A DNA stretch of 64,000 bases from an uncultured Rhodospirillaceae bacterium (GTDB lineage Bacteria; Pseudomonadota; Alphaproteobacteria; MPNO01; UBA830), in NCBI GenBank assembly GCA_963974055.1, contig CAXBCP010000001.1:191471-255470 (forward strand). Direction: 5' to 3'. Both the position numbers and the translations under genes were made by a program. The notes below the pieces were generated by a model. It was not told the origin of the DNA. It was given only the letters and a program-made list of their open reading frames with translations, and did not search any database. Below, in pieces: positions 42,379 to 62,112 of the stretch; position 1 is the stretch's first letter, and each line of letters starts with the position of its first letter.

Positions 42379-42630
42379 TCACGCGGCCAGCTTCTGGTCC
42401 ACGAATTCGGTCAGGCTGCCGACGGATTCAAATGATTCGGCCGAAATTTCGTCGTCTTCGACGAATATATCGAATTGTTCTTCCAGCGCCGTGATCACCG
42501 TGACGACGGCCATCGAGTCGAGTTCGGCTATACTGCCGAGCAGCGGCGTGGATGCCGTGAAATTGTCGACCCTGTCTCCGAGTTGAAGGGTTTCCCCCAA
42601 CACCTGCTTCACGACGTCGATAGTTGCCAT
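42379..42630 (-). CDS. acyl carrier protein
   Basis: 83 aa. The phosphopantetheine attachment motif is LGSIAELDSMAVV (DSM variant of DSL). Four-helix ACP-like composition. Confidence 0.75.
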   Translation of the reverse strand: MATIDVVKQVLGETLQLGDRVDNFTASTPLLGSIAELDSMAVVTVITALEEQFDIFVEDDEISAESFESVGSLTEFVDQKLAA

Positions 42631-42753
42631 TACATTTGCCCCGTACGCATAAATTCATCATTTCAATCAGGTCTTTATATTCCACGCGCGGCGTCTGGAC
42701 AAAGACCAATCGTGGTATCCTTACCGTTATCGGAGCGATCATCGGGAACTTTC

Positions 42754-43461
42754 ATGCGCGTCATTCGTAAATTCAGGGGGTTGGCCGCCGAGTTCGGCTT
42801 TGGCAATGCAGTGCTCTACGTCTTCGGGCTGGCGCTGCGGGGGATATGCCCCGGTGCATCCGTTTATCGCTATTACATCGTTGCGCAGCCGGTGCCGGAC
42901 AAAAACCTGCTGCCGGCCCGGCGCGGCAAGGCGATTGCGGTCCGCGAGCTGAAACCCGGCGATCCGGCGTTTTCGGCCCTGCCGCTCGATCAGGACGTTC
43001 TGGCCTACCGCTTTGCCCAGAACGTGGTCTGTCTCGGCGCGTTCCAGAACGAAAAGCCGATCGGCTGTCTGTGGATGTGTTTCGATTCCTATGACGAAGA
43101 CGAAATCAGGTGCACTTTCCGCCTCGCTCCCGTCGGGCGTGTCTCCTGGGATTTCGACGTTTATCTGCACCCCGACGCGCGGCTCGGTTTTGCCTTTCTG
43201 CGGCTATGGGACGAAGCGAACGCGATTTTGCGCGACCGGGGTATCGCCTGGTCGCTCAGCCGTATTTCCGGCTTCAACCCGGGGTCGATGGCGTCCCATG
43301 CCCGCATGGGGGCGGTTCGCGTGGGAAGTCTGATTGCGCTGAAAGGCCCGAAAAGGCAGCTCGTCTGGAGCACTTATTCGCCCGTTTTCAGCTTCCGGCG
43401 GCTCGACGGAAACCTGCCTTCCTATACCGTTTCTCCGCCCGGGCATGCGGAGACGCGTTGA
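42754..43461 (+). CDS. GNAT-fold acyltransferase-like protein (candidate N-acyl amino acid synthase type)
   Basis: 235 aa from MRVIRKF. Size and position match the small acyltransferase found with ACP and ligase genes in exosortase loci. No strong motif was seen, so the assignment is tentative. Confidence 0.45.
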   Translation: MRVIRKFRGLAAEFGFGNAVLYVFGLALRGICPGASVYRYYIVAQPVPDKNLLPARRGKAIAVRELKPGDPAFSALPLDQDVLAYRFAQNVVCLGAFQNEKPIGCLWMCFDSYDEDEIRCTFRLAPVGRVSWDFDVYLHPDARLGFAFLRLWDEANAILRDRGIAWSLSRISGFNPGSMASHARMGAVRVGSLIALKGPKRQLVWSTYSPVFSFRRLDGNLPSYTVSPPGHAETR

Positions 43462-45091: not shown

Positions 45092-46353
45092 GCGACGCTC
45101 CCGAAGCCAGGAAACGCGAAAAACCGAAACCGGTCACGGCGCCGATAGAACAGTTCCCGGTCGAGAACGGGGACCTTGTCATCGGCGGCGTGCCGTTATC
45201 CCGTCTGGCCCGTCAGATCGGGGCGACGCCGTTTTTCGCCTATGACCGCGATCTGATCTCGCAACGGATCGCCCATCTGCGCGAAATCCTGCCCGATGGC
45301 GTGAACCTGAATTTCGCGATGAAGGCGAACCCCATGCCGGCCGTCGTGCAGCATGCCGCGGGACTGGTCGACGGAATTGACGTCGCCTCCGCCCTCGAAA
45401 TGAACGTGGCGCTCGACACCACCATGCCGCGCCATCGCATCAGTTTCGCCGGGCCCGGCAAGACCGAGGCGGAGATCGCGCGCGCCGTAGCGGCGGGGAT
45501 CGTGCTCAATCTTGAATCCGCGAACGAAATGGAAATCGTTGCCCGCCACGCCGCGGAACAGGGTGTCGTGGCGCCGGTCGCCGTTCGGGTGAATCCGGAT
45601 TTCGAACTCAAGACGTCCGGCATGAGGATGAGCGGCGGGCCGAAGCAGTTCGGTGTCGATGCCGAATGCGTGCCCGACATGCTCCGGCGCATGGGCGAAC
45701 TGCCGACCCTGGAATTTCATGGCTTTCATATATTCAGCGGTTCGCAGAATCTGCGGGCGGAAGCGCTGATCGAAGCCCAGACGAACACGGTCGATCTTGC
45801 AATCGCGCTGGCGGCCGTTGCGCCCGGACCCGTAAGACACCTCAATATCGGCGGCGGGTTCGGCATCCCGTATTTCCCCGGCGACACGCCGCTCGACCTC
45901 ACGCCGGTTGCCGAGAATCTCGACGGATTGATGGCGCGGATCAAAACCGAGCTGGGCGATGTCCGCGTCGTTATCGAACTCGGACGCTATATCGTCGGCG
46001 AGGCCGGCATCTATGTCAGCCGGATCGTCGACCGCAAGGAATCGCGCGGAAAGGTATTCCTGATCACCGATGGCGGGCTGCATCATCAGCTCGCTGCATC
46101 GGGCAATTTCGGGCAGGTGATCCGGAAGAACTATCCCGTCGCGATCGGCAATCGCATGGACGAGCCGGCGACCGAAACCGCGGACATCGTCGGCTGTTTG
46201 TGCACGCCGCTCGATCTTCTCGGCGACAAGGTGGACATACCGGCGGCCGCGGTCGGCGACCTTGTGGTGCTGTTTCAGTCGGGCGCCTATGGGCTGACGG
46301 CCAGTCCCACGGCTTTTCTCAGCCATCCGGTGCCGCTCGAGGTGCTGGTTTGA
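45088..46353 (+). CDS. PLP-dependent decarboxylase, Orn/DAP/Arg decarboxylase fold-III family
   Basis: GTG start overlaps the ligase stop (GTGA). Motifs as in diaminopimelate decarboxylase: NFAMKANP with the PLP-lysine, GGGFGIPY, and the C-terminal CTPLD. Confidence 0.85.
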   Translation: MSDAPEARKREKPKPVTAPIEQFPVENGDLVIGGVPLSRLARQIGATPFFAYDRDLISQRIAHLREILPDGVNLNFAMKANPMPAVVQHAAGLVDGIDVASALEMNVALDTTMPRHRISFAGPGKTEAEIARAVAAGIVLNLESANEMEIVARHAAEQGVVAPVAVRVNPDFELKTSGMRMSGGPKQFGVDAECVPDMLRRMGELPTLEFHGFHIFSGSQNLRAEALIEAQTNTVDLAIALAAVAPGPVRHLNIGGGFGIPYFPGDTPLDLTPVAENLDGLMARIKTELGDVRVVIELGRYIVGEAGIYVSRIVDRKESRGKVFLITDGGLHHQLAASGNFGQVIRKNYPVAIGNRMDEPATETADIVGCLCTPLDLLGDKVDIPAAAVGDLVVLFQSGAYGLTASPTAFLSHPVPLEVLV

Positions 46354-48233
46354 CGGGACTCGTCGGATGGGCCGGCGCGGGTCGGTCGGGCGACCACGTT
46401 TACGAGCTTTCTTCCCCCGATATCGTCGCCCGGATGCTCGATGCCGGACATGCGCATGAAGGATCGGCACGGCAGTCGGAAGCGGTTGCCGCTGCCGGTA
46501 TCGGCGCGCAGGGCTGGTCGTCCGACGTTTCCGTGCACAGCGCCGGGGATATCCTTGCCGTCGTTTACGGCCGGGCGCGGTGGCGCGGCGAAAAATACAG
46601 GCAGCGTGCGGTCGCGCAGGGCGGCGCAGCGGCCCTTATCGAAGCCTGGCGCGACAAGGGAATATCGCTGTTCGATATTGTCGGCGGTCCGGCGTCTTTT
46701 GCGATCGTCGATTCCGCCCGGCATGAAGCGCTGGTCGCTATCGATCGTATCGGTGTCCAGCAGATGTCGTTTGCAACAACCCCTGCCGGGGCATTTGTCT
46801 TTGCATCCGATGCGCGGGCTGTCTGCAGTCATCCGGCGCTCAACCCGGATATTTCCCGTCAGGCATTGTTCAATTATCTCTATTTTTATATCAGCCCGGG
46901 ACCGGCAACGGTTTTCGAGGATATCGAAAAGCTCCAGCCCGGACAGTATGCCCATTTCCGCAACGGCGCGGTGTCGCGGTCGTTCTATTGGCAGCCCGCA
47001 TATACCGAATTCTCCGACCGCGATGACGGGGCCTGTGCCGAGCAGGTGCGCGACAGCCTGAGGGACGGTGTCGGGGCGGCGGTGGCCGCGGTTCCCGGTG
47101 CAGAGCCGGGCGCCTTTCTGAGCGGCGGGCTCGACAGCACGTCGGTTGCGGGTTATCTGGCCGGCCACCGGCCCGGGGCGAAGGGTTTCACGATCGCCTT
47201 CCCGGAAGAAAAATACAACGAACTGCCCTGGGCGGAGGCGGGTGCCCGGCGGTTCGGCATTGATCATGTCACACATGTGCTGACGCCGGCGGAAACGGTG
47301 GACGCGATTCCGGGAATCGTCGAGGCGCATGACGAACCCTATGGCAACTCGTCGTCCGTGCCGGCTTATATCTGTGCGCGGGTGGCGCGGGATAACGGGG
47401 TCGGGCTTCTGCTTGCCGGCGACGGCGGCGACGAAATATTCGCCGGAAACGAGCGCTACGTCGAGCAGCGCCGCTACGATGCATGGCGCCGTATCCCGTC
47501 ACCGTTCCGCAGGTTACTGCACGGACTGCTGCTCAACGGGGCCGGCCGCAATACGGGCGACGGCGTGCTGGCGCGGGCCACCGCCTATGCAAACCGGGCG
47601 GAGACACCGCTGCCCGACAGGCTGCAGGCTTACAACATCATCGCGACATCTGGATTGTCGCGTCTGTTCCATCCCGATTTCCTGGCGGCGATCGACCCCG
47701 GAGAGCCGCTGCGGATCGCGCGCGAGATCTATCACCGGCCCGACGGCGCTACGGAGCTGAAACGTATGCAGTTTCTCGATCTCCACATAACGCTTGCGGA
47801 TAACGATCTGAGGAAGGTCAACAGGGCGTGCGAGCTCGCCGGCGTCCGCGTCGCCTATCCGATGCTTGACGAAGACCTCGTTTCGTTTGCGGCGGCGATC
47901 CCGTCGGCAACGTTGTTGCCCCAGCGCCGGCTGCGCGGCTTCTACAAGGACACGATGGCAGGGTTTTTGCCGCCGGAAATTCTGAGCAAACAAAAGCACG
48001 GCTTCGGCATGCCGTTTTCCGAATGGACCCGCGCGCCGGGCGATCTTCGCGATATGGCCGAAGAGGGGCTTCGGGCTTTTGCGACCCGCGATATTCTTGC
48101 GGACGGGATTATCGACGAGATCCGGTCCGATCTGACCGGCGTCCGAGAAAGCCGGTTCGGCGGGCTGATCTGGGACGTCATGATGCTGGAATTGTGGCTG
48201 TCGCGTCATTCAGATATTGCGACACTACATTGA
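46350..48233 (+). CDS. asparagine synthase (AsnB) family protein lacking the N-terminal catalytic cysteine
   Basis: TTG start overlaps the decarboxylase stop (TTGA). The N-terminus is (M)TGLVGWAG; canonical AsnB begins MCGIAGW. The C-terminal synthetase domain is intact (FLSGGLDSTSV PP-loop, ELPWAE..., YKDTMAGFLPPEIL). The 855-aa ORF-track frame is the same reading frame read through the preceding gene. Confidence 0.7.
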   Translation: MTGLVGWAGAGRSGDHVYELSSPDIVARMLDAGHAHEGSARQSEAVAAAGIGAQGWSSDVSVHSAGDILAVVYGRARWRGEKYRQRAVAQGGAAALIEAWRDKGISLFDIVGGPASFAIVDSARHEALVAIDRIGVQQMSFATTPAGAFVFASDARAVCSHPALNPDISRQALFNYLYFYISPGPATVFEDIEKLQPGQYAHFRNGAVSRSFYWQPAYTEFSDRDDGACAEQVRDSLRDGVGAAVAAVPGAEPGAFLSGGLDSTSVAGYLAGHRPGAKGFTIAFPEEKYNELPWAEAGARRFGIDHVTHVLTPAETVDAIPGIVEAHDEPYGNSSSVPAYICARVARDNGVGLLLAGDGGDEIFAGNERYVEQRRYDAWRRIPSPFRRLLHGLLLNGAGRNTGDGVLARATAYANRAETPLPDRLQAYNIIATSGLSRLFHPDFLAAIDPGEPLRIAREIYHRPDGATELKRMQFLDLHITLADNDLRKVNRACELAGVRVAYPMLDEDLVSFAAAIPSATLLPQRRLRGFYKDTMAGFLPPEILSKQKHGFGMPFSEWTRAPGDLRDMAEEGLRAFATRDILADGIIDEIRSDLTGVRESRFGGLIWDVMMLELWLSRHSDIATLH

Positions 48234-49428: not shown

Positions 49429-51051
49429 ATGAGTGAATTATACGTACAAATCCTCGCTTATCTTACGTCTATCTGGCGCAGGCGGTGGTATGCGCTCGCA
49501 ATTTCTTGGCTGGTCTGCGGTGCCGGCTGGACAATGGTTGCCGGCCTTCCCGACAAGTATGAATCCCAGGCCCGTGTTTATGTCGACATGGATACGATGC
49601 TTGGCCCGCTGATGAAGGGCATCGCGGTCCAGGTCAACATGTTCCAGCAGATCGACATCATGCAGCGTACGCTGCTGAGCCGCCCCAATCTTGAAAAGGT
49701 CATTCTGATGACCGACCTCGACCTCAAGATAAAATCGGAAGGCGAGAAAGAAGCGCTGATCGAGAAACTCGCGAATTCGATTTCGATTCGCCAGCAGGGT
49801 CGCAACCTGTTCCGGGTCGCCTATGACGACCGTGAGCCCGCGATCACAAAGCGCGTCGTTCAGGCGGTGTTGCAGATTTTCGTCGAGAGTAATCTGGGGT
49901 CCAGCCGAAAGGATATGGATTCCACGCGGCGTTTCCTGTCCGACCAGATCAAGGATTACGAACGCCAGCTCGAACTTGCGGAAAACAAACTCGCGACCTT
50001 CAAACGCAAAAATCTCGGCATGCTCCCCGGCGAGGGAAACTATTATTCGCACATGCAGGCCATGCGGGCGCAGCACAAGCGTACCGAAGCCCAGATTGCG
50101 GAGGCATCGACCGTTCGCGACGAACTGAAGCAGCAACTGACTTCTGTGCCGCAGTTTCTCGAACTCGCGGGCGGCATGCCCGATATCGCGCTTGCGTCCT
50201 CTGCGGGGGAAGGTCCCGAATCGGATACCCAGATCAGGATCTTCGAGTTGCAGAAGGTCGTCGACAATCTGTTGACGCGCTACACCGACAAACATCCCGA
50301 TGTGGCAACCACGATCAAGCGGCTTGAGGTTCTCAAGAAAGAGCTTGCCGACGAACGCAAGGCCGAATTCGGCCCGACCGATCAGGCGCCCGTCGAACAG
50401 GCGGCTGAAGCCGGCAAGAACGTGGTGCCCAATCCGGTCTACGAACAGGTCAAGATACAGCTCGTCCAGCAGGAGGCGGCGATTGCCGCGTTCAAGCGGC
50501 GCGCCGAAAAGGAAGGCGTCGACGTTAAAAAGTGGGAACAGCTGGCCGGCCGCGTGCCGCAGGTCGAGGCCGAGCTTTCCCGGCTCTCGCGCGATTACGA
50601 AATCGTCAAGAGAGGTTACGAGGAATTGCGCCAGCGGCAGGAATCTGCCCGGCTTGCTTCGGACATGGAAACAAAGGCGCAAAAGGTCCAGTTCCGCATT
50701 GTCGATCCGCCCAAGCTTCCGCTTAAGCCCAGCGGTCCCAACCGGCCTCTTTTCATGGCCGTGGTCCTTGTTGCCGGACTCGGCGCCGGACTGGCATTTG
50801 CCTTCCTGCTGGGACAGGTCAATTCGACCTTCCAGACGGTGCAGCGCCTGCGCCTGACCTTCGCTCTGCCGGTGCTGGGTTGTGTGACCGCAATTACGTC
50901 GGTCGGCGAACGCCGCCGCCGGCGTCGCGAGTTGCTCGGTTTCGGGCTGGTTGCGGCAAGCTTGATCGTTGCTTTCGGTGGGCTCCTCATGGTTGAAGTT
51001 ATGGGGGCAAATGGCTTGCTAGCGACCGTCAAGGGGCTTAGCATCGTCTAA
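49429..51051 (+). CDS. polysaccharide chain length determinant protein (Wzz/EpsF-like, PEP-CTERM locus subfamily)
   Basis: 540 aa. An N-terminal TM (WYALAISWLVCGAGWTMVAGL) is followed by a long coiled-coil periplasmic region and a C-terminal TM (LFMAVVLVAGLGAGLAFAFLLG). Confidence 0.8.
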   Translation: MSELYVQILAYLTSIWRRRWYALAISWLVCGAGWTMVAGLPDKYESQARVYVDMDTMLGPLMKGIAVQVNMFQQIDIMQRTLLSRPNLEKVILMTDLDLKIKSEGEKEALIEKLANSISIRQQGRNLFRVAYDDREPAITKRVVQAVLQIFVESNLGSSRKDMDSTRRFLSDQIKDYERQLELAENKLATFKRKNLGMLPGEGNYYSHMQAMRAQHKRTEAQIAEASTVRDELKQQLTSVPQFLELAGGMPDIALASSAGEGPESDTQIRIFELQKVVDNLLTRYTDKHPDVATTIKRLEVLKKELADERKAEFGPTDQAPVEQAAEAGKNVVPNPVYEQVKIQLVQQEAAIAAFKRRAEKEGVDVKKWEQLAGRVPQVEAELSRLSRDYEIVKRGYEELRQRQESARLASDMETKAQKVQFRIVDPPKLPLKPSGPNRPLFMAVVLVAGLGAGLAFAFLLGQVNSTFQTVQRLRLTFALPVLGCVTAITSVGERRRRRRELLGFGLVAASLIVAFGGLLMVEVMGANGLLATVKGLSIV

Positions 51052-51066
51052 CTTCGGGGTAGGCGA

Positions 51067-52905
51067 TTGACCGATAATGATTCACCGCGTCGCGGGGCGA
51101 CCGAGGGCGGAAATTCTTCTTCGCCCCCATCTTCGTCTGTTGAAAAAGCGGCCGAACGGATGACCCGTGATCCCGGGGCAGACCGGAAAACAGGCGTTGG
51201 GAACGACTCTCCTCCGCAACGGCAGAACCCGGCGAGCAGCATAGAGCGTTTTCTGGATACGGCTGACGGCGGCGTCGCCGACGAGGGGCCCTCCGGCCCG
51301 GCCCGGTTCCAGGATCCCGGCGCCGACTCGGATGTGCCCGCCCGGAACACCCACATTCCGCAGGACGAGCCCGGACCCGGTTTGGATGCCGATTCAGCAT
51401 GGCGTGGTCCTGCCGCCGCCCCGCCTCCGCCACAGGGGCTTCCGGAGCATGGACAGCCGCCGCAATATGCGCCGCCGCCCGGGGCGGGAGATTCGTCTTA
51501 TCCGCAACCCAATCCGGAATCGGTGGAGGGGCCGCCTCCCGGTGCCCGGCCTGACGAGACGCCGCCTGCCGCTCCCGATTACCCCGAACATGCTCCGGCG
51601 CAGTCACCGGTAACGGATCCCGCGGCCGCTGCCGCGGCAGCGATGACCCCCGCCGTAAAACGGAAAGGACTGCTCAGGCGTCGGAGGAAAGCGACGAAGC
51701 CCTGGCATCGCGATCATGCCGCCGACGCGGCTTCAGCGGATGAGGCCGTCGGCAGCGTCCCGCCCGGCGATCCGCGCGATGTGGCACGTTCCGGCAACCC
51801 TGCCGCTGCTGCCGCTCCGCGCCGTCGTGGGATATTCGGTCTGTTCTGGGCCATGATCCGTTTTCTTCTGATCGGTAAAAAGCGCTTAAATGCGCCCAGG
51901 CCGGCCACACCCCGCGGCACGCCGCGTCTTCCGAAATTGGGGCGGCTCCCGGGGTTGTCGCGGCTCAGGGGCATGGGTATTCCCGTTTTGGCTCTTGCGG
52001 GGCGGGTGCCCGGATTCGGAAAGTTAAGACGATCCGCGGCTTCCGCTGTTTCCGCGGTATCAGACAGCGCGTCCGGAAACCCGCGTCCCGCGCCCGTCGA
52101 AACGGCAATGCAGATCCGGCGAAACGCGGCCGGGTCGCATATTCATCGGCCGCTCGATATGAGCCGGCGCGTTGGCCGGTCGGTCGAAATCGACCTCGAA
52201 AAGATCCAGGCGGCCGGCATGGTCACGCCGTTCGGCGAACGCACGCATATCGCGGAGGAATTCCGCCTTATCAAGCGCCCGCTCCTGCTGAACGCCTTCG
52301 AAAAAGGACCCAACGCCATCCGCAACGGGAATGTCATCATGGTCGCGAGTTCGCGTTCCGGTGAAGGCAAGACGTTCATGGCGGTGAACCTCGCCATGAG
52401 CATTGCTTCTGAACGCGATCTGACGGTTCTGTTGATCGACGCCGACGTTGCGAAACCCGATATTCCGAACGTTCTCGGGTTCGAAGCCGATCTCGGCCTA
52501 GTCGATCTGATTGCCGATGACCGCATCGATATGTCCGATGTGATCATGCGAACCAATATCGAGAATCTCAGCGTGATGCCGGCCGGCCGGCCACATCACC
52601 TCGCGACGGAACTGCTGGCCAGCGAACGGATGGGCAATCTGGTATCGGAGCTTTCCCTCCGGTATCCCGAGCGTGTCGTCATTATGGATTCCCCGCCCGC
52701 ATTGCTCAGCAGCGTGGCGGGAGTTTTGGCGCTCAATGTCGGCCAGACGTTGTTCGTCGTCGAGGCCGAGCGGACCTCCCAAACGGCGGTCGATAGTGCG
52801 ATAGGTCTTGTTAGTGCTTGCAAAAACATCAACCTCTTGCTCAATAAGAGTCGCCCGCTTGGGGGCGGCGAACGTTTTGGGTCCTATCAGAACAGCTACT
52901 ATTGA
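51067..52905 (+). CDS. BY-kinase-type P-loop ATPase (EpsG-like tyrosine autokinase) with ~330-aa proline-rich insert
   Basis: TTG start with a GGGGTAGG SD. N-terminal SSVEKAAERM motif. A proline-rich low-complexity region spans roughly aa 40-370. The C-terminal kinase has Walker A SRSGEGKTF, A' VLLIDADV, Walker B VIMDSPP, and a terminal Tyr cluster YQNSYY. Confidence 0.7.
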   Translation: MTDNDSPRRGATEGGNSSSPPSSSVEKAAERMTRDPGADRKTGVGNDSPPQRQNPASSIERFLDTADGGVADEGPSGPARFQDPGADSDVPARNTHIPQDEPGPGLDADSAWRGPAAAPPPPQGLPEHGQPPQYAPPPGAGDSSYPQPNPESVEGPPPGARPDETPPAAPDYPEHAPAQSPVTDPAAAAAAAMTPAVKRKGLLRRRRKATKPWHRDHAADAASADEAVGSVPPGDPRDVARSGNPAAAAAPRRRGIFGLFWAMIRFLLIGKKRLNAPRPATPRGTPRLPKLGRLPGLSRLRGMGIPVLALAGRVPGFGKLRRSAASAVSAVSDSASGNPRPAPVETAMQIRRNAAGSHIHRPLDMSRRVGRSVEIDLEKIQAAGMVTPFGERTHIAEEFRLIKRPLLLNAFEKGPNAIRNGNVIMVASSRSGEGKTFMAVNLAMSIASERDLTVLLIDADVAKPDIPNVLGFEADLGLVDLIADDRIDMSDVIMRTNIENLSVMPAGRPHHLATELLASERMGNLVSELSLRYPERVVIMDSPPALLSSVAGVLALNVGQTLFVVEAERTSQTAVDSAIGLVSACKNINLLLNKSRPLGGGERFGSYQNSYY

Positions 52906-52932
52906 CCCGTAGCGGTTCGGGCGGAGGGTCGG

Positions 52933-54429
52933 TTGGGCGACGACGGCAAGGGATATAACAGAATCGGCACGGTCGCCTGCAGCGCCGTTGCAGTCCCTGT
53001 GCTGTTCGCAGTTTCGCTGTTGCCGACGATTTTTGCGGCGGCGCCGGCCCATGCAGGCGATTGGTCCATATCCCCTGCAATCGGCACAACGGGCACCTTT
53101 TCCGATAACGCAAATGGCGCGACGGACAGGGAAGACCGGAATTCGGATCAGCTATTTACCGTTTCGCCGGCAATCAATGTCCGGGGCAGCGGCGGGCGGG
53201 TATCGCTGAACCTCGCCTATAGCCATAACCGCTTTTATTCCCGCCAGGATACGGCGCAGGGCTCGTCGACAAACAACCTCAGTGCAAACGGCCAGGCGGA
53301 AATTTGGGAGCGCTCTGCATTCGTGAACGTGACGTCGTCGATCACCCGCCAGGTTGTCGATCCGGCAGAGTCGGTGTCGACAACGGATACCGGGTCCGAC
53401 GCGAACAGGACGACGGTCCGGACGGTGTCGATCCAGCCGTTTTTCCTGCATCATTTCGGCAACTGGCTGGAGACGGAATCGCGGACGTCGTTCAATTTCA
53501 CGCAGAGCGAATCCGATGAGATCACGAATACCGAGTCTCTCGGCGAAACATTTACCGTCAATAGCGGAAACCGGTTCACGCTGTTCACGTTCGGCGGTTC
53601 GCTGAACCGCCAGAAAGAAATACGTGCAAACGGCGAACCGCGGTCGATTTCGACCACGCTGAATACGAATTACCGGTACCAGGTCAGCCGCAAGCTGTCG
53701 TTGATCAGTTCGGTCGGCTGGGAAACCATCGACGATCCCGCGCTCAGCGAGGAGCCCAACGGCATTATCTGGGAAGTCGGGTTCTCCGCGCAGCCCAGTT
53801 CGCGGTCGTCGCTGGAATTCACGGTCGGCGACCGATTCGAAACCACGACCTACGGGTTGAGCGCAAGCTATCGCCTTTCGGTCCGTTCCAACGTTTCCGC
53901 GTCCTATAACGAATCGATCACGACGTCCCAGGAACAACTGAACGAAGACCTCAGTTTTATCGGTACCGATGCCAATGGGCAGCAGATCGACCTGCGGACA
54001 TTGCAGCCATTCGACGCGTCGGCCAGCGAACTCGGTTTCCAGACGTCCCTTTTCCGCCAGAAGGTTCTGTCGGTCGATTTCAACACAACCCGGCGCCGCG
54101 GCAGCTATTCGGCGGGATTTAACTGGGAAAGGCGGACGACCGATTCCACGGGTGTCCTCGAAAGGGTGCTGGGGATGAACCTGTCGGCATCCCGGACGCT
54201 GTCTTCACGCCTGTCGACATCGGTTTCGACCGCGCTCCGTTTTATCGACCGCGGCACCCCGGACCAGCGTGAGGATATCACCCACAGTTTAACTGGTTCC
54301 TTGACTTACCGGTTGATGGAAAATACCAATGCTGCGTTAAGTTACGCACGCAGCCAGACAAGATCGACCGAAGGCAGCAATAACTTTCGGGACAATACGG
54401 TTACAATAAACCTTACCCGCAATTTTTGA
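52933..54429 (+). CDS. outer-membrane beta-barrel protein (PEP-CTERM-locus uncharacterised porin-like family)
   Basis: TTG start with a GGAGGG SD. Signal peptide ...PTIFAAAPAHA. Amphipathic alternating beta-strand pattern rich in S/T/N. C-terminal aromatic ...INLTRNF. Confidence 0.6.
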   Translation: MGDDGKGYNRIGTVACSAVAVPVLFAVSLLPTIFAAAPAHAGDWSISPAIGTTGTFSDNANGATDREDRNSDQLFTVSPAINVRGSGGRVSLNLAYSHNRFYSRQDTAQGSSTNNLSANGQAEIWERSAFVNVTSSITRQVVDPAESVSTTDTGSDANRTTVRTVSIQPFFLHHFGNWLETESRTSFNFTQSESDEITNTESLGETFTVNSGNRFTLFTFGGSLNRQKEIRANGEPRSISTTLNTNYRYQVSRKLSLISSVGWETIDDPALSEEPNGIIWEVGFSAQPSSRSSLEFTVGDRFETTTYGLSASYRLSVRSNVSASYNESITTSQEQLNEDLSFIGTDANGQQIDLRTLQPFDASASELGFQTSLFRQKVLSVDFNTTRRRGSYSAGFNWERRTTDSTGVLERVLGMNLSASRTLSSRLSTSVSTALRFIDRGTPDQREDITHSLTGSLTYRLMENTNAALSYARSQTRSTEGSNNFRDNTVTINLTRNF

Positions 54430-60177: not shown

Positions 60178-62112
60178 ATGTGCGGAATTACAGGCCTGTT
60201 CGACACCGTCGGTCGCAGCGAGATCGATCGCGGTTTGTTGACGCGCATGAATGACAGCCATCGTCACAGGGGCCCGGACGGAGACGGTGTGTTCCTGGAC
60301 GACGGTATCGGCCTGGGACACCGCCGGCTTTCGATTATCGACCTTTCGGGCGGCGCGCAGCCGTTGTTCAACGAAGACGAATCCGTCGTCGTCGTCTTTA
60401 ACGGCGAGATCTATAATTTTCAGGAGCTTTCCAAGGAGCTGATCGAAGCCGGTCACCGGTTCCGGACCCACAGCGACACCGAAGTCATCGTGCATGCCTG
60501 GGAAGAATGGGGACAGGCCTGCGTCGACCGTTTCCGCGGCATGTTCGCCTTTGCGCTTTGGGACCGGAAGAAAGAAACGCTGTTCCTGGTGCGCGACCGT
60601 CTCGGGATCAAGCCCCTGTATTATGCGGTCCTCCCCAACGGGACCCTTATTTTCGGTTCCGAGCTGAAATCGCTGCTGCTGCATCCGGCCTTCGAGCGGA
60701 AACTGGACCCGACCGCGGTCGAGGAGTATTTCGCCTATGGATACGTTCCCGACCCGAAAACCATCTATGCCGGCGCGCACAAGCTTGCTCCCGGCCATCT
60801 GATCAAGTGGCGCCGGGGCGACAGCCGCCCGCGGCCGCAAAAGTACTGGGATATCAGCTTCGATCCGTCGGACCACCGGGACGAAGGCGAAATCTGCGAA
60901 GACCTGATCGAACAGATGCGCGAAGCGGTAAAACTGCGGATGATCGCCGATGTGCCGCTCGGCGCGTTCCTGTCCGGCGGGGTGGATTCCAGCGCCGTTG
61001 TCGCGATGATGGCGGGCGAGGACAGCGATCCGGTGAATTCCTGCTCGATATCCTTCGCAGACCCGAAGTTCGACGAATCCCGATATGCCCAGACGGTGGC
61101 CGACCGGTACGGAACGGATCATTTCGTCGACCAGGTCGATCCCGACGCCTTCGATCTCGTAGACCGTCTGGCGAATATGTATGACGAACCGTTCGCGGAT
61201 TCATCCGCGATGCCGACTTACCGGGTATGCGAACTGGCCCGCAAACGGGTTACCGTCGCCCTTTCCGGCGATGGCGGCGACGAAATCTTCGCCGGTTACC
61301 GCCGCTACCGATGGCATGATTATGAGGAACGGGTCAGAGGGATTTTACCCGATGCGATCCGCAAGCCGCTCTTCGGGTTTCTCGGCGCCGCCTATCCGAA
61401 AATGGATTGGGCGCCGAAACCGCTGCGGGCGAAATCGACCCTTCAGGCGATCGGGCGCGATACGGTAGGCGGTTTTTTCCACAGCGTGTCCGTGTTGTAC
61501 GACGGCGTCCGGCAGCCCATCTACAGCGATGCGTTTCGCAACGATCTCCAAGGGTACCACGCGCGGGAGGTGCTCGATAACGTCATGGCAGATGCGCCGG
61601 CCGACGACCATACGTCCCGCGTGCAATACGCCGATCTCAAGACCTATTTGCCGGGCGATATTCTGACCAAGGTCGACCGGGCGAGCATGGCACATTCGCT
61701 GGAAGTGCGTGTGCCGTTGCTCGATCACAAATTCGTCGAATGGTCGGCGCGGCTTCCGTCCGCGCTCAAGCTGCGTGGCCGCGAAGGGAAGTATATTTTC
61801 AAGAAAGCGCTGGAACCGCATCTCGGCAATGACATCCTCTACCGTTCCAAGATGGGATTTTCCGTACCGCTGGGCACCTGGTTCAGGGGACCGCTCAGGG
61901 AACGGGTCGAGACGGCGCTGTGCGGAGAGACACTGGCGGATACGGGCATGTTCGACGTAAACCAGTTGAAGACAATCGTTTCCGAGCACCAGTCGGGCGT
62001 GCGCGAACATTCTGCGGTCATGTGGGCGCTGCTGATGTTTGAGAGTTTTCTCCGGCAGGTGCACAATGAGGCTGGAATACCGGAAAATGTTTCGAACCCG
62101 GCGGATGCCTGA
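60178..62112 (+). CDS. asnB: asparagine synthase (glutamine-hydrolysing), XrtA/PEP-CTERM system amidotransferase type
   Basis: Starts MCGITGLFD with the Cys2 nucleophile. PP-loop FLSGGVDSSAV. 644 aa. Confidence 0.9.
   Translation: MCGITGLFDTVGRSEIDRGLLTRMNDSHRHRGPDGDGVFLDDGIGLGHRRLSIIDLSGGAQPLFNEDESVVVVFNGEIYNFQELSKELIEAGHRFRTHSDTEVIVHAWEEWGQACVDRFRGMFAFALWDRKKETLFLVRDRLGIKPLYYAVLPNGTLIFGSELKSLLLHPAFERKLDPTAVEEYFAYGYVPDPKTIYAGAHKLAPGHLIKWRRGDSRPRPQKYWDISFDPSDHRDEGEICEDLIEQMREAVKLRMIADVPLGAFLSGGVDSSAVVAMMAGEDSDPVNSCSISFADPKFDESRYAQTVADRYGTDHFVDQVDPDAFDLVDRLANMYDEPFADSSAMPTYRVCELARKRVTVALSGDGGDEIFAGYRRYRWHDYEERVRGILPDAIRKPLFGFLGAAYPKMDWAPKPLRAKSTLQAIGRDTVGGFFHSVSVLYDGVRQPIYSDAFRNDLQGYHAREVLDNVMADAPADDHTSRVQYADLKTYLPGDILTKVDRASMAHSLEVRVPLLDHKFVEWSARLPSALKLRGREGKYIFKKALEPHLGNDILYRSKMGFSVPLGTWFRGPLRERVETALCGETLADTGMFDVNQLKTIVSEHQSGVREHSAVMWALLMFESFLRQVHNEAGIPENVSNPADA

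What the first reader, a model, noticed from the sequence alone, without database searches (positions are those of the whole stretch)
51067..52905. EpsG-type BY-kinase carrying a ~330-residue proline-rich low-complexity insertion
PEP-CTERM-locus tyrosine autokinases are normally compact, about 250-320 aa cytoplasmic P-loop proteins. Here the conserved N-terminal SSVEKAAERM motif and the C-terminal Walker A/A'/B plus YQNSYY tail are separated by a long tract rich in P, A, G, D and E. Examples: PPPPQGLPEHGQPPQYAPPPGAGDSSYPQPNPESVEGPPPGARPDETPPAAPDYPEHAP. The nucleotide sequence is not simple-repeat. This could be an intrinsically disordered tether or scaffold.
Basis: seen in the sequence. Interest (0 to 1): 0.55.

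Follow-up and report, generated by a model that had tools for sequence, protein, structure and literature searches.

The report
Long-linker XrtA-locus tyrosine kinase variant
This is a real, translated long form of the tyrosine autokinase found in XrtA/PEP-CTERM polysaccharide loci: a small group of uncultured marine alphaproteobacteria has stretched the family's usual ~100-residue floppy N-terminal linker to ~350 residues and added a few conserved motifs, including a short greasy helix that probably holds the kinase at the membrane. It is an interesting lineage-specific variant, not a new kind of system.

Summary
The ORF 51067..52905 (+, 612 aa, TTG start) is real. It lies in a complete XrtA/PEP-CTERM locus. 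Its C-terminal 240 residues are a BY-kinase domain that passes the TIGR03018 cut-off (XrtA-associated autokinase) but not the EpsG model TIGR03029.

The ~340 residues between the N-terminal SSVEKAAERM helix and the kinase core are translated:
- Frame +1 is the only frame open in all eight homologous loci, and it gives the best cross-species scores.
- Twenty-four long-form homologues (430-649 aa) share the architecture and the synteny.
- Homologues have ATG where the window has TTG.

The tract is not a foreign insertion. Short-form members (about 336-350 aa) already carry the N-terminal motif plus a ~70-100-aa Pro/Ala spacer, so this is a ~250-270-aa expansion.

The tract is not uniform either. 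In order it contains:
- an acidic Pro-rich block, nearly free-evolving, with net charge -15;
- a basic KPWHRD motif;
- a conserved hydrophobic helix, RRRG-IFGLFWAMIRFLLIG-KKR;
- a strongly basic block, net charge about +15.

AlphaFold2 calls everything except three short helices low-confidence coil. A linker profile searched against 1.84 billion representative proteins hit only 3 clusters, all long-form kinases.

Best reading: a disordered double tether with a monotopic or peripheral membrane anchor. The anchoring is inferred, not shown. This is a new variant of a known kind, of moderate-low interest.

The parts
49429..51051 (+). Partner gene: XrtA-system polysaccharide chain-length determinant (the transmembrane PCP/Wzz-GNVR protein). 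Its stop codon lies 15 nt before the kinase start.
   Evidence: TIGR03007 scores 539 bits against a cut-off of 279. Pfam Wzz and GNVR also hit. The same neighbour is present in L001, L002, L084 and L085.
51056..51063 (+). Shine-Dalgarno-like GGGGTAGG just upstream of the start, conserved in homologous loci as GGG(G/A)TAGG.
   Evidence: Read directly from the sequence.
51067..52905 (+). Complete CDS of the long-form XrtA-associated tyrosine autokinase: 612 aa, TTG start, TAA... stop codon at 52903-52905.
   Evidence: ORF listed. The homologous position is ATG in L001, L085, L003 and L004, and TTG in L002, L083 and L084. The N-terminus M[TN]DxD[RKS]PRRG is conserved.
51133..51165 (+). Family-wide N-terminal motif SSVEKAAERMT (aa 23-33), predicted as a short helix.
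   Evidence: The S-x-[VIL]-E-[KR]-A motif occurs in most short and long family members. AlphaFold2 predicts helix 24-33 at pLDDT about 69. Amino-acid identity is 69-92% with synonymous changes.
51235..51255 (+). Second copy-like motif SSIERFL (aa 57-63).
   Evidence: Conserved as (T/A)SSIERFL in the clade. Two S-x-[VI]-E-[KR] matches occur in most long forms. Identity is 60-100%.
51256..51657 (+). Acidic Pro/Ala/Gly-rich disordered block (aa 64-197).
   Evidence: P 23%, net charge -15. The equivalent block in 24 homologues is 97-230 aa, net -6 to -23, P 14-32%. Amino-acid identity is 16-32% and codon-position mismatch is about 0.6/0.5/0.7. AlphaFold2 gives coil at pLDDT 47-57.
51658..51717 (+). 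Basic motif 1: KRKGLLRRRRKATKPWHRDH (aa 198-217).
   Evidence: The consensus RGLFxRKxKxxKPWHRD is conserved in most of the clade. Net charge is +3 to +9.
51718..51816 (+). Short acidic variable block (aa 218-250).
   Evidence: Net charge -2 to -15 in homologues. Identity is 9-40%.
51817..51885 (+). Conserved hydrophobic helix with basic flanks: PRRRG-IFGLFWAMIRFLLIG-KKR (aa 251-273). Proposed membrane-association element.
   Evidence: G255, R265, F266, L268, I269, G270 and K272 are invariant in 16 of 16 sequences. The segment occurs only in long forms. AlphaFold2 predicts helix 256-268 in both runs, at pLDDT 64-70, the highest in the linker. Codon-position mismatch of 0.3/0.1-0.17/0.6 indicates purifying selection.
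51886..52107 (+). Basic Arg/Pro/Leu/Gly-rich block 2 (aa 274-347).
   Evidence: Net charge is +15 here and +12 to +23 in all 24 long forms, and the first 15 residues contain almost no acidic residues. The sequence is poorly conserved at 22-59% identity.
52108..52182 (+). Clade-conserved pre-kinase segment MQIRRNAAGSHIHRPLDMSRRVGRS (aa 348-372).
   Evidence: R351, A355, H358, R361-D364, R368, G370 and R371 are invariant. M348 is not conserved. No promoter-like site is found in 50900-53000.
52183..52884 (+). BY-kinase catalytic core (aa 373-606). Walker A is at 52348-52374, Walker A' at 52429-52458 and Walker B at 52675-52698.
   Evidence: TIGR03018 matches aa 386-593. PDB sequence hits are CapB, VpsO, BceF, Wzc and Etk. 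Foldseek top hits are CapAB, Etk and Wzc at E of about 1e-13. pLDDT is above 90. Identity among long forms is 88-98%.
52885..52902 (+). C-terminal tyrosine cluster YQNSYY (aa 607-612).
   Evidence: Y611 and Y612 are invariant, and Y607 is nearly invariant family-wide.

Best explanation
The gene encodes a full-length 612-aa, split ('F-type-like') BY-kinase of the XrtA/PEP-CTERM exopolysaccharide system (TIGR03018 family). It is translated from TTG 51067, probably coupled to the upstream chain-length-determinant gene.

The family as a whole has an N-terminal docking-type helix (S-x-V/I/L-E-K/R-A) joined to the P-loop kinase by a ~70-100-aa disordered Pro/Ala spacer. In one narrow lineage of uncultured marine Alphaproteobacteria this spacer has grown to ~340 aa and become modular. 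The order is:
1. N-terminal helix motif, plus a second SSIERFL copy;
2. a ~130-170-aa acidic, Pro-rich, sequence-unconstrained spacer;
3. the basic KPWHRD motif;
4. a short acidic block;
5. a conserved ~16-residue hydrophobic helix bracketed by Arg/Lys;
6. a ~90-aa strongly basic spacer;
7. the kinase.

Shown: the tract is translated and conserved in frame, is predicted disordered apart from three short helices, keeps its charge-block pattern, and is specific to the lineage.

Inferred: the hydrophobic helix and its polybasic flanks sit in or on the cytoplasmic face of the inner membrane as a monotopic or in-plane anchor. The kinase would then be held next to its transmembrane partner on a ~90-aa basic leash. 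The N-terminal docking helix would hang on a long acidic leash and be free to reach its still unknown partner. This would functionally mimic the covalent membrane attachment of fused Wzc-type kinases.
For: Translation and start:
- Frame +1 has 0 stops in all 8 loci; the other frames have stops in nearly all loci (up to 13).
- Frame +1 has the highest cross-species scores, 238-466 against 48-160. The in-register antisense frame scores 151-318 but carries stops in most loci.
- ATG or TTG occurs at the same position, with a conserved upstream GGG(G/A)TAGGCGA and a conserved N-terminus.

Family and context:
- TIGR03018 scores above its cut-off.
- The BY-kinase fold is confirmed.
- The full XrtA locus is present in the window and in L001, L002, L084 and L085.

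Expansion of an existing linker:
- Short forms have an N-terminal part of about 96-110 aa with the same motif and P 10-25%.

Disorder:
- AlphaFold2 gives coil at pLDDT 43-57 except for helices 24-33, 256-268 and 343-356.

Selection pattern:
- The kinase is 96-98% identical while third codon positions differ at 44-48%.
- The acidic block is 16-32% identical, with near-random mismatch at all codon positions.
- The helix is 61-78% identical, with low second-position mismatch.
- Charge blocks are conserved in 24 of 24 long forms.

Helix:
- The invariant residues are G255, R265, F266, L268, I269, G270 and K272.
- Basic residues lie directly on both sides. The C-flank carries +4 to +9 with almost no acidic residues.
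- On a helical wheel G255, G258, small-262, R265, K272 and W261 share one face (my reading of the sequence).
- The N-terminal motif is shared with short forms that have no hydrophobic segment at all. This argues that the N-terminus works in the cytoplasm and that the helix does not cross the membrane.

Lineage specificity:
- The linker profile hits only 3 of 1.84 billion representatives, all long-form kinases.
- Only 2 GTDB species representatives match residues 1-612.
Against: - No experiment or dedicated topology predictor was available, so membrane association is inferred from sequence only.
- The helix core is short (15-16 residues) and carries an invariant Arg.
- My crude position-independent Hessa sum is +7 to +9 kcal/mol for a 19-residue window, against -1.7 to -0.6 for the transmembrane segments of the partner protein. 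It is therefore not a canonical TM helix, and it could equally be a protein-binding helix.
- The hydrophobic moment is modest, 0.27-0.46, so it is not a textbook amphipathic helix either.
- AlphaFold2 pLDDT for the helix is only 64-70.
- Low pLDDT is an indirect proxy for disorder.
- The partner of the N-terminal motif is unknown.
Confidence: 0.55

Rival explanations
1. The hydrophobic segment is a true single-pass transmembrane helix (N-out, C-in). The ~250-aa acidic Pro-rich N-terminal arm, with its SSVEKAAE motif, would then be periplasmic, and only the basic block and the kinase would be cytoplasmic. That would be a new one-TM BY-kinase topology.
For: - The C-flank is far more positive than the N-flank (+4 to +9 with almost no acidic residues, against +1 to +4 with 0-6 acidic residues). 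That fits the positive-inside rule with the kinase inside.
- The 15-residue core has a Kyte-Doolittle mean of 2.05.
- The small-xxx-small pattern G255/G258/[GAS]262 resembles TM packing motifs.
- The BY-kinase review lists 422 proteobacterial 'orphan catalytic domains with transmembrane domains' (PMC9800525).
Against: - The core is only 15-16 residues with an invariant Arg. The 19-residue Kyte-Doolittle mean is 1.17 and the crude Hessa sum is strongly positive.
- Two or three Arg/Lys always sit directly N-terminal of G255, and a +9 cluster lies 35 residues upstream.
- There is no signal peptide for exporting a 250-aa N-terminal tail.
- The same N-terminal motif occurs in short forms that have no hydrophobic segment and must be cytoplasmic.
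Confidence: 0.14
2. The helix and the other conserved islands are protein-protein interaction motifs with no direct lipid contact. They would bind the cytoplasmic parts of the chain-length determinant, the TIGR03015 ATPase, or neighbouring kinase protomers.
For: - The islands behave like short linear motifs in a disordered region: conserved, short and flanked by free-evolving sequence.
- The hydrophobic moment and hydrophobicity are intermediate.
- Split BY-kinases are known to need contact with their transmembrane partner (PMC9800525).
Against: - A stretch of 15 almost purely aliphatic and aromatic residues bracketed by polybasic runs is more typical of lipid-binding anchors than of soluble interaction motifs (inference).
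- No partner could be tested here.
Confidence: 0.2
3. The Pro-rich region is an untranslated or irrelevant leader, and the functional product starts at an internal Met (M348 at 52108 or M365 at 52159) just upstream of the kinase domain.
For: - Two independent gene callers already chose an internal ATG. That was M32, not M348, in P0001 and L084.
- A product starting at M365 would still contain the whole catalytic core.
Against: - Frame +1 is uniquely open and the best conserved across 8 loci.
- Conserved islands carry synonymous substitutions.
- M348 is Ala, Leu, Val or Gln in most homologues, and M365 is Leu in the divergent members.
- There is no Shine-Dalgarno-like sequence before either Met and no promoter-like site.
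- The family-wide N-terminal motif would be lost.
Confidence: 0.03
4. The expansion is neutral 'junk' growth of a tolerant disordered linker with no function of its own. An assembly, frameshift or gene-fusion artefact is a sub-case.
For: - The acidic block is almost unconstrained in sequence and full of indels.
- Linker length varies across the family from 73 to 409 aa.
Against: - The same architecture occurs on independent assemblies from Tara, JGI, Logan and NCBI MAGs, so it is not an artefact.
- Invariant residues in the helix, the conserved KPWHRD and pre-kinase segments, and the charge-block pattern conserved in 24 of 24 sequences argue for selection.
Confidence: 0.08

Closest known systems
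TIGR03018 XrtA-associated tyrosine autokinase (short form, ~336-350 aa)
   Same: - The catalytic domain scores above the family cut-off.
- The N-terminal S-x-[VIL]-E-[KR]-A motif is the same.
- A Pro/Ala-rich spacer is present.
- A C-terminal Tyr cluster is present.
- It occupies the same position in the XrtA locus, between TIGR03007 and TIGR03016.
   Different: - The linker is about 3.5 times longer.
- It carries lineage-specific modules: SSIERFL, KPWHRD, the RFLLIG helix, the basic block and the SHIxRPLDMSRRVGR segment. These are absent from short forms and from every other protein in 1.84 billion representatives.
EpsG (TIGR03029), the Methylobacillus-type / XrtB-locus BY-kinase
   Same: It is a split BY-kinase encoded next to a separate chain-length determinant, with the same P-loop fold.
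   Different: It scores 64.5 bits against a cut-off of 313.8. The locus has XrtA (TIGR03109, 332 bits), not XrtB (72 bits against 275). It is not a member.
F-type BY-kinases CapB/CapA (S. aureus), PtkA/TkmA (B. subtilis)
   Same: - The kinase and the transmembrane adaptor are separate proteins from adjacent genes.
- CapA1B1 is the best PDB match by sequence and by fold.
- Architecture follows PMC9800525.
   Different: - The host is proteobacterial.
- The kinase carries a ~370-aa N-terminal extension with its own hydrophobic helix. CapB-type kinases have only a short N-terminus and rely wholly on CapA for membrane recruitment (established knowledge; PMC9800525).
P-type Wzc/Etk (fused BY-kinases)
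   Same: - The catalytic fold, Walker A/A'/B and Y-cluster are shared.
- If the helix is an anchor, the kinase is membrane-attached in cis, as in Wzc.
   Different: - There is no periplasmic domain and no two-TM hairpin in the same polypeptide.
- The basic block lies upstream of the catalytic domain, so it is not positionally equivalent to the Wzc RK-cluster, which is inside the catalytic domain (PMC9800525).
Pro-rich disordered tethers of envelope proteins (TonB EP/KP spacer, ZipA P/Q linker, FtsK linker). Analogy recalled from my own knowledge, not tested.
   Same: A long Pro-rich, low-complexity, fast-evolving spacer links a membrane anchor to a functional module. TonB also has an acidic-then-basic Pro-rich arrangement.
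   Different: There is no sequence relationship. Here the anchor lies in the middle of the linker and the spacer is predicted to be cytoplasmic.
MinD/ParA-type ATPases with a membrane-targeting helix. Analogy recalled from my own knowledge.
   Same: BY-kinases share the MinD/ParA P-loop fold (MinD hits). A short helix next to basic residues would give peripheral membrane binding.
   Different: The MinD helix is C-terminal, about 10 residues long and clearly amphipathic. Here the helix is N-terminal to the domain, longer and almost uniformly hydrophobic.

Membership tests
BY-kinase (bacterial tyrosine autokinase, P-loop type) | MinD/ParA-like P-loop fold with Walker A, Walker A' and Walker B motifs | tested here: met
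   SSRSGEGKT is at aa 428-436, LLIDADVAKP at 455-464 and VVIMDSPP at 537-544. PDB sequence hits are CapB, VpsO, BceF, Wzc and Etk, E 4e-16 to 7e-10. Foldseek top hits are CapAB, Etk and Wzc, probability 1.00.
BY-kinase (bacterial tyrosine autokinase, P-loop type) | C-terminal tyrosine cluster as autophosphorylation site | tested here: met
   The tail is YQNSYY at aa 607-612. Y611 and Y612 are invariant in the clade and Y607 is at least 90% conserved family-wide.
BY-kinase (bacterial tyrosine autokinase, P-loop type) | Tyrosine autophosphorylation activity | not testable with these tools
   This needs an in vitro kinase assay or phosphoproteomics.
TIGR03018 XrtA-associated tyrosine autokinase | Score above the curated NCBIfam cut-off | tested here: met
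   252.3 bits against a cut-off of 230.65, covering aa 386-593 and model positions 2-207 of 207.
TIGR03018 XrtA-associated tyrosine autokinase | Encoded in an XrtA/PEP-CTERM locus next to the TIGR03007 chain-length determinant | tested here: met
   The window contains TIGR03027, 03007, 03016, 03015, 03006, 03019, 03087, 03109 (XrtA), 03108, 03098 and 03099, all above their cut-offs.
TIGR03029 EpsG (XrtB/Methylobacillus-type) | Score above the curated cut-off | tested here: not met
   64.5 bits against a cut-off of 313.8.
F-type (split) BY-kinase architecture | Catalytic domain and transmembrane adaptor encoded as separate, adjacent genes | tested here: met
   The PCP gene 49429-51051 ends 15 nt before the kinase start. 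The definition follows PMC9800525.
Intrinsically disordered linker | Biased composition, no predicted stable structure, and rapid sequence and indel evolution with conserved bulk properties | tested here: met
   Composition. AlphaFold2 coil with pLDDT mostly 43-57, and many segments below 50, across aa 34-342. Identity is 16-32% with indels, yet charge and length are conserved. Disorder itself is inferred, not measured.
Membrane-anchoring helix (monotopic or peripheral) | Conserved hydrophobic helix flanked by basic residues | tested here: met
   Invariant residues are listed. The helix is predicted in both AlphaFold2 runs.
Membrane-anchoring helix (monotopic or peripheral) | Actual membrane binding, and its topology | not testable with these tools
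   Only crude hydropathy sums were possible. They argue against a canonical TM helix but do not establish lipid binding.

The most novel reading that the evidence does not exclude
The RFLLIG segment is a genuine single-pass, N-out transmembrane helix. The kinase would then thread a ~250-residue acidic, Pro-rich arm tipped with the conserved SSVEKAAE/SSIERFL helices into the periplasm, TonB-like. There it would contact the chain-length determinant, the TIGR03016 outer-membrane protein or the nascent polymer. This would be a previously undescribed one-TM BY-kinase topology that couples periplasmic events directly to cytoplasmic tyrosine phosphorylation. A variant reading is that the acidic and basic blocks form an electrostatic auto-inhibitory switch or a membrane-proximal condensate.
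Probability: 0.12. Interest if true: 0.6.

Novelty: new variant of a known kind. Interest (0 to 1): 0.3.

Why it matters
XrtA/PEP-CTERM loci are widespread in environmental bacteria and are linked to floc and biofilm polysaccharides, but their tyrosine kinase has hardly been studied. This long form matters in four ways.

1. The N-terminal helix motif plus a disordered spacer is a family-wide design feature worth testing, for example as a docking element.
2. One marine lineage has added what looks like its own membrane anchor to a split kinase. That would be an evolutionary intermediate between the split (F-type) and fused (P-type) architectures.
3. It is a clean natural example of a disordered linker whose sequence drifts almost neutrally, next to a 97%-conserved enzyme, while its length, charge blocks and a few short motifs are kept.
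4. Practically, gene callers truncate these proteins at an internal ATG and lose the conserved N-terminal motif.

None of this changes how BY-kinases are understood in general.

Tried and rejected
- Foreign or mobile insertion: rejected. GC3 of the linker (0.67) equals that of its neighbours (0.69-0.72). The GC bump comes from GC1/GC2 of Pro, Ala, Gly and Arg codons. The linker profile has no homologue outside the clade.
- Simple-repeat expansion: rejected. TRF finds only two trivial arrays.
- Overlapping antisense gene (ORFs 51038-51607 and 51714-51974 on the minus strand): rejected. The antisense frames carry stops in nearly all homologous loci. Their intermediate similarity is the expected shadow of the in-register sense frame.
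- Frameshift or fusion of two genes: rejected. The ORF is continuous in all 8 loci and 24 proteins.
- Equivalence of the basic block to the Wzc RK-cluster: considered and dropped. The RK-cluster lies inside the catalytic domain, whereas this block is upstream of it.
- First AlphaFold2 run with a 16-sequence, low-diversity alignment: uninformative for the kinase (mean pLDDT 42). It was repeated with 115 sequences.
- Pfam gave no hit in aa 1-385. PDB sequence search gave nothing outside aa 391-598.
- Literature searches found no description of this linker, or of TIGR03018 kinases experimentally.
- The Eisenberg hydrophobicity and moment, and a position-independent Hessa sum, were inconclusive for distinguishing an in-plane helix from a TM helix.
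Full report
**1. The observation**

An uninterrupted ORF occupies exactly 51067..52905 on the + strand (612 aa; the mechanical start is TTG).
- SSVEKAAERM at aa 23-32;
- the quoted Pro-rich peptide;
- Walker A (SSRSGEGKT, aa 428-436), Walker A' (LLIDADVAKP, 455-464) and Walker B (VVIMDSPP, 537-544);
- the YQNSYY tail (607-612).

Tandem Repeats Finder finds only two trivial arrays, with scores of 32 and 36, so the DNA is indeed not a simple repeat. Local GC rises to 0.66-0.71 over 51150-52200. This comes from first and second codon positions (GC1 0.74, GC2 0.63), that is from Pro, Ala, Gly and Arg codons. GC3 is 0.67, the same as the neighbouring genes at 0.69-0.72. It is therefore host-like DNA, not an acquired segment.

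**2. What family it is**

NCBIfam places aa 386-593 in TIGR03018, the XrtA-associated tyrosine autokinase: 252.3 bits against a cut-off of 230.65. The EpsG model TIGR03029 reaches only 64.5 bits against 313.8. 'EpsG-type' is therefore wrong in the strict sense.

PDB sequence search matches only aa 391-598, to CapB, VpsO, BceF, Wzc and Etk. A confident AlphaFold2 model of the core (pLDDT above 90) has CapAB, Etk and Wzc as its top Foldseek hits.

The window carries a complete XrtA locus:
- exporter TIGR03027;
- chain-length determinant TIGR03007 (49429-51051, ending 15 nt before the kinase);
- the kinase;
- outer-membrane protein TIGR03016;
- ATPase TIGR03015;
- deacetylase TIGR03006;
- FemAB TIGR03019;
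- glycosyltransferase TIGR03087;
- exosortase A TIGR03109;
- amidotransferase TIGR03108;
- upstream, the ligase TIGR03098 and decarboxylase TIGR03099.

In the terminology of the BY-kinase review this is a split, 'F-type-like' arrangement, which is rare in Proteobacteria (28 F-type against 10,741 P-type in BYKdb; PMC9800525).

**3. Is the long tract translated?**

Yes, on four lines of evidence.

(a) A homology search found 24 further proteins of 430-649 aa that align with the query over the tract, most at 54-62% identity over ~96-100% of it. Most family members are 336-350 aa and match only the last ~40%.

(b) I compared the linker DNA of the window with seven homologous loci in all six frames. 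Frame +1 is the only frame without stops in every locus. It gives the highest protein-level scores, 238-466 against 48-160 for the other sense frames. The in-register antisense frame scores 151-318 but carries stops in most loci.

(c) The start is conserved. L001, L085, L003 and L004 have ATG exactly where the window, L002, L083 and L084 have TTG. It is preceded by GGG(G/A)TAGGCGA and followed by M-[TN]-D-x-D-[RKS]-P-R-R-G. The database copy of this very protein (P0001, Tara Oceans, 581 aa) and the call in L084 start at an internal ATG (M32 here). That cuts off the conserved N-terminal motif and is a gene-caller artefact.

M365 is Leu in the divergent members. Neither is preceded by a Shine-Dalgarno-like sequence, and no promoter-like site lies in 50900-53000. 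A minor internal product cannot be excluded computationally, but the leader hypothesis is not supported.

**4. It is an expansion, not an insertion**

In 80-odd short-form members the region before the kinase core is about 96-110 aa. It begins with the same S-x-[VIL]-E-[KR]-A motif and continues with a Pro/Ala-rich spacer (P 10-25%). The N-terminal helix plus a disordered spacer is therefore a family-wide design. The window's lineage has lengthened the spacer by ~250-270 aa. Intermediate lengths (130-230 aa) exist in other lineages. Two of them (P0030, P0040) show an acidic-then-basic arrangement without the hydrophobic helix.

**5. Anatomy of the tract**

The tract is modular.

| Residues | Feature |
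|---|---|
| 23-33 | SSVEKAAERMT, predicted helix |
| 57-63 | SSIERFL, a second copy-like motif |
| 64-197 | Acidic Pro/Ala/Gly block; over aa 33-195, net -15 and P 23% |
| 198-217 | Basic motif KRKGLLRRRRKATKPWHRDH |
| 218-250 | Short acidic block |
| 251-273 | PRRRG-IFGLFWAMIRFLLIG-KKR |
| 274-347 | Basic Arg/Pro/Leu/Gly block, about +15 |
| 348-372 | Clade-conserved segment ..RR.AAGSHI.RPLDMSRRVGR |
| 373 onward | Kinase core |

G255, R265, F266, L268, I269, G270 and K272 are invariant in 16 aligned long forms. The RF[LIMV]LIG segment occurs only in long forms. The charge pattern (acidic block, basic motif, small acidic block, helix, +12 to +23 block) is kept in essentially all 24 long forms despite very low sequence identity; a few divergent members lack the basic motif.

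**6. Selection pattern**

Between the window and six homologous loci:
- The kinase core is 96-98% identical in protein (88% for the most distant locus), while third codon positions differ at 44-50%. This is very strong purifying selection at near-saturated synonymous divergence.
- The acidic block is 16-32% identical, with mismatch of about 0.6/0.5/0.7 at codon positions 1/2/3. Its sequence is almost unconstrained and full of indels.
- The helix is 61-78% identical, with mismatch of 0.3/0.1-0.17/0.6.
- The N-terminal motif is 69-92% identical, and the pre-kinase segment 76-84% in the closer loci (44% in the most distant).

Bulk properties are selected in the spacers, and specific residues are selected in the islands.

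**7. Structure prediction**

With a deep alignment (115 sequences), AlphaFold2 gives coil at pLDDT 43-57 across aa 34-342. The exceptions are helices at 24-33 (about 69), 256-268 (68-70) and 343-356 (66-68). The core from 371 is above 90. A shallow alignment gave the same 256-268 helix as the only confident element in the linker. This supports 'intrinsically disordered with embedded short helices'. Low pLDDT is only a proxy for disorder.

**8. Distribution**

A profile of the linker alone (177 positions) was searched against 1.84 billion representative proteins. It hit three clusters, all of them long-form kinases.

Among 185,579 GTDB species representatives, only two loci match residues 1-612: an uncultured Rhodospirillaceae MAG and a Paracoccaceae MAG. 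All others match only about residue 315-375 onward. The exact protein occurs on Tara Oceans contigs.

Long-form loci have the same gene order as the window. The module is thus a lineage-specific innovation of a narrow group of uncultured, apparently marine, Alphaproteobacteria. It has no other protein context.

**9. How it most likely works**

Shown: this is a translated, largely disordered, modular linker in a split BY-kinase of the XrtA system.

Inferred: the conserved hydrophobic helix with basic residues directly on both sides is a membrane-association element.

I favour a monotopic or in-plane anchor on the cytoplasmic face rather than a membrane-spanning helix, for four reasons:
- The core is only 15-16 residues and has an invariant Arg.
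- A crude Hessa sum over 19 residues is +7 to +9, against -1.7 to -0.6 for the partner's real TM segments.
- Two or three Arg/Lys always precede G255, and a +9 cluster lies 35 residues upstream.
- The N-terminal motif is shared with short forms that have no hydrophobic segment and must act in the cytoplasm.

On a helical wheel G255, G258, small-262, R265, K272 and W261 fall on one face. That is an interfacial-type face opposite a broad aliphatic and aromatic face (my reading of the sequence).

In this model the kinase hangs on a ~90-aa basic leash that would also favour anionic lipids. The family-wide N-terminal docking helix hangs on a ~170-aa acidic leash. The split kinase thereby gains cis membrane attachment comparable to fused Wzc-type enzymes. 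The identity of the N-motif's partner is unknown.

Rivals are: a true N-out TM helix (the strongly positive C-flank fits positive-inside), a pure protein-protein motif, neutral linker growth, and internal initiation. Their probabilities are given in the rival list.

**10. Novelty and verdict**

The family, the locus and the fold are known. Long-form members are already in public databases, labelled 'XrtA-associated tyrosine autokinase' or 'protein-tyrosine kinase'. The review notes in passing that some catalytic domains carry predicted TM segments.

I found no description of this linker architecture. It is a new variant of a known kind. It is a tidy case of linker expansion with acquisition of a probable anchor, of moderate-low general interest, with a useful annotation correction (the TTG start).

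Noticed in passing
window 51067 vs 51160; L084 2920 vs 3001: Gene callers (the Tara call P0001, and Logan L084) start this kinase at an internal ATG. That removes the family-wide N-terminal SSVEKAAE helix. The conserved start is TTG or ATG, 15 nt after the upstream gene's stop.
   Followed up: yes
window 52183-52905 (aa 373-612): The kinase core is 96-98% amino-acid-identical among long-form homologues although third codon positions differ at 44-48%. This is unusually strong purifying selection sitting next to an almost free-evolving linker.
   Followed up: partly
P0030 (427 aa), P0040 (399 aa): These are intermediate-length linkers in another lineage. They have an acidic-then-basic block arrangement (e.g. 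...DDEDEPYEDESYGDDDGD... then RPGRLRRLLTFGRK...RRARSAAKK) but no RFLLIG helix. They may be an independent or ancestral stage of the expansion.
   Followed up: no
P0110 (817 aa): One homologue carries the kinase domains and PF10082 (the downstream TIGR03016-type outer-membrane protein) in a single ORF. This is either a real fusion or a lost stop codon or assembly error.
   Followed up: no
window 45666-48233 (+): The mechanical 855-aa ORF is over-extended. The real gene (621 aa in L001 and L002) is a second, divergent asparagine-synthase-like paralogue. It scores 254 bits, far below the TIGR03108 cut-off of 817. The canonical TIGR03108 gene is at 60178-62112 (1068 bits).
   Followed up: partly
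window 49429-51051 (aa ~440-525 of the chain-length determinant): The partner protein has two C-terminal hydrophobic segments separated by a loop containing ERRRRRRE. This is a candidate cytoplasmic contact site for the kinase.
   Followed up: no
window 42475-43461 (+): A 328-aa ORF (TTG) at the upstream edge of the locus has no NCBIfam hit at E<=1e-10. The syntenic 235-aa gene in L001 and L002 has no Pfam hit either. It is a conserved protein of unknown function in this locus type.
   Followed up: no
window 51038-51607 and 51714-51974 (- strand): Long antisense ORFs overlap the linker. They are a by-product of the GC-rich Pro/Ala/Arg coding sequence. The equivalent frames carry stops in most of the homologous loci.
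   Followed up: yes
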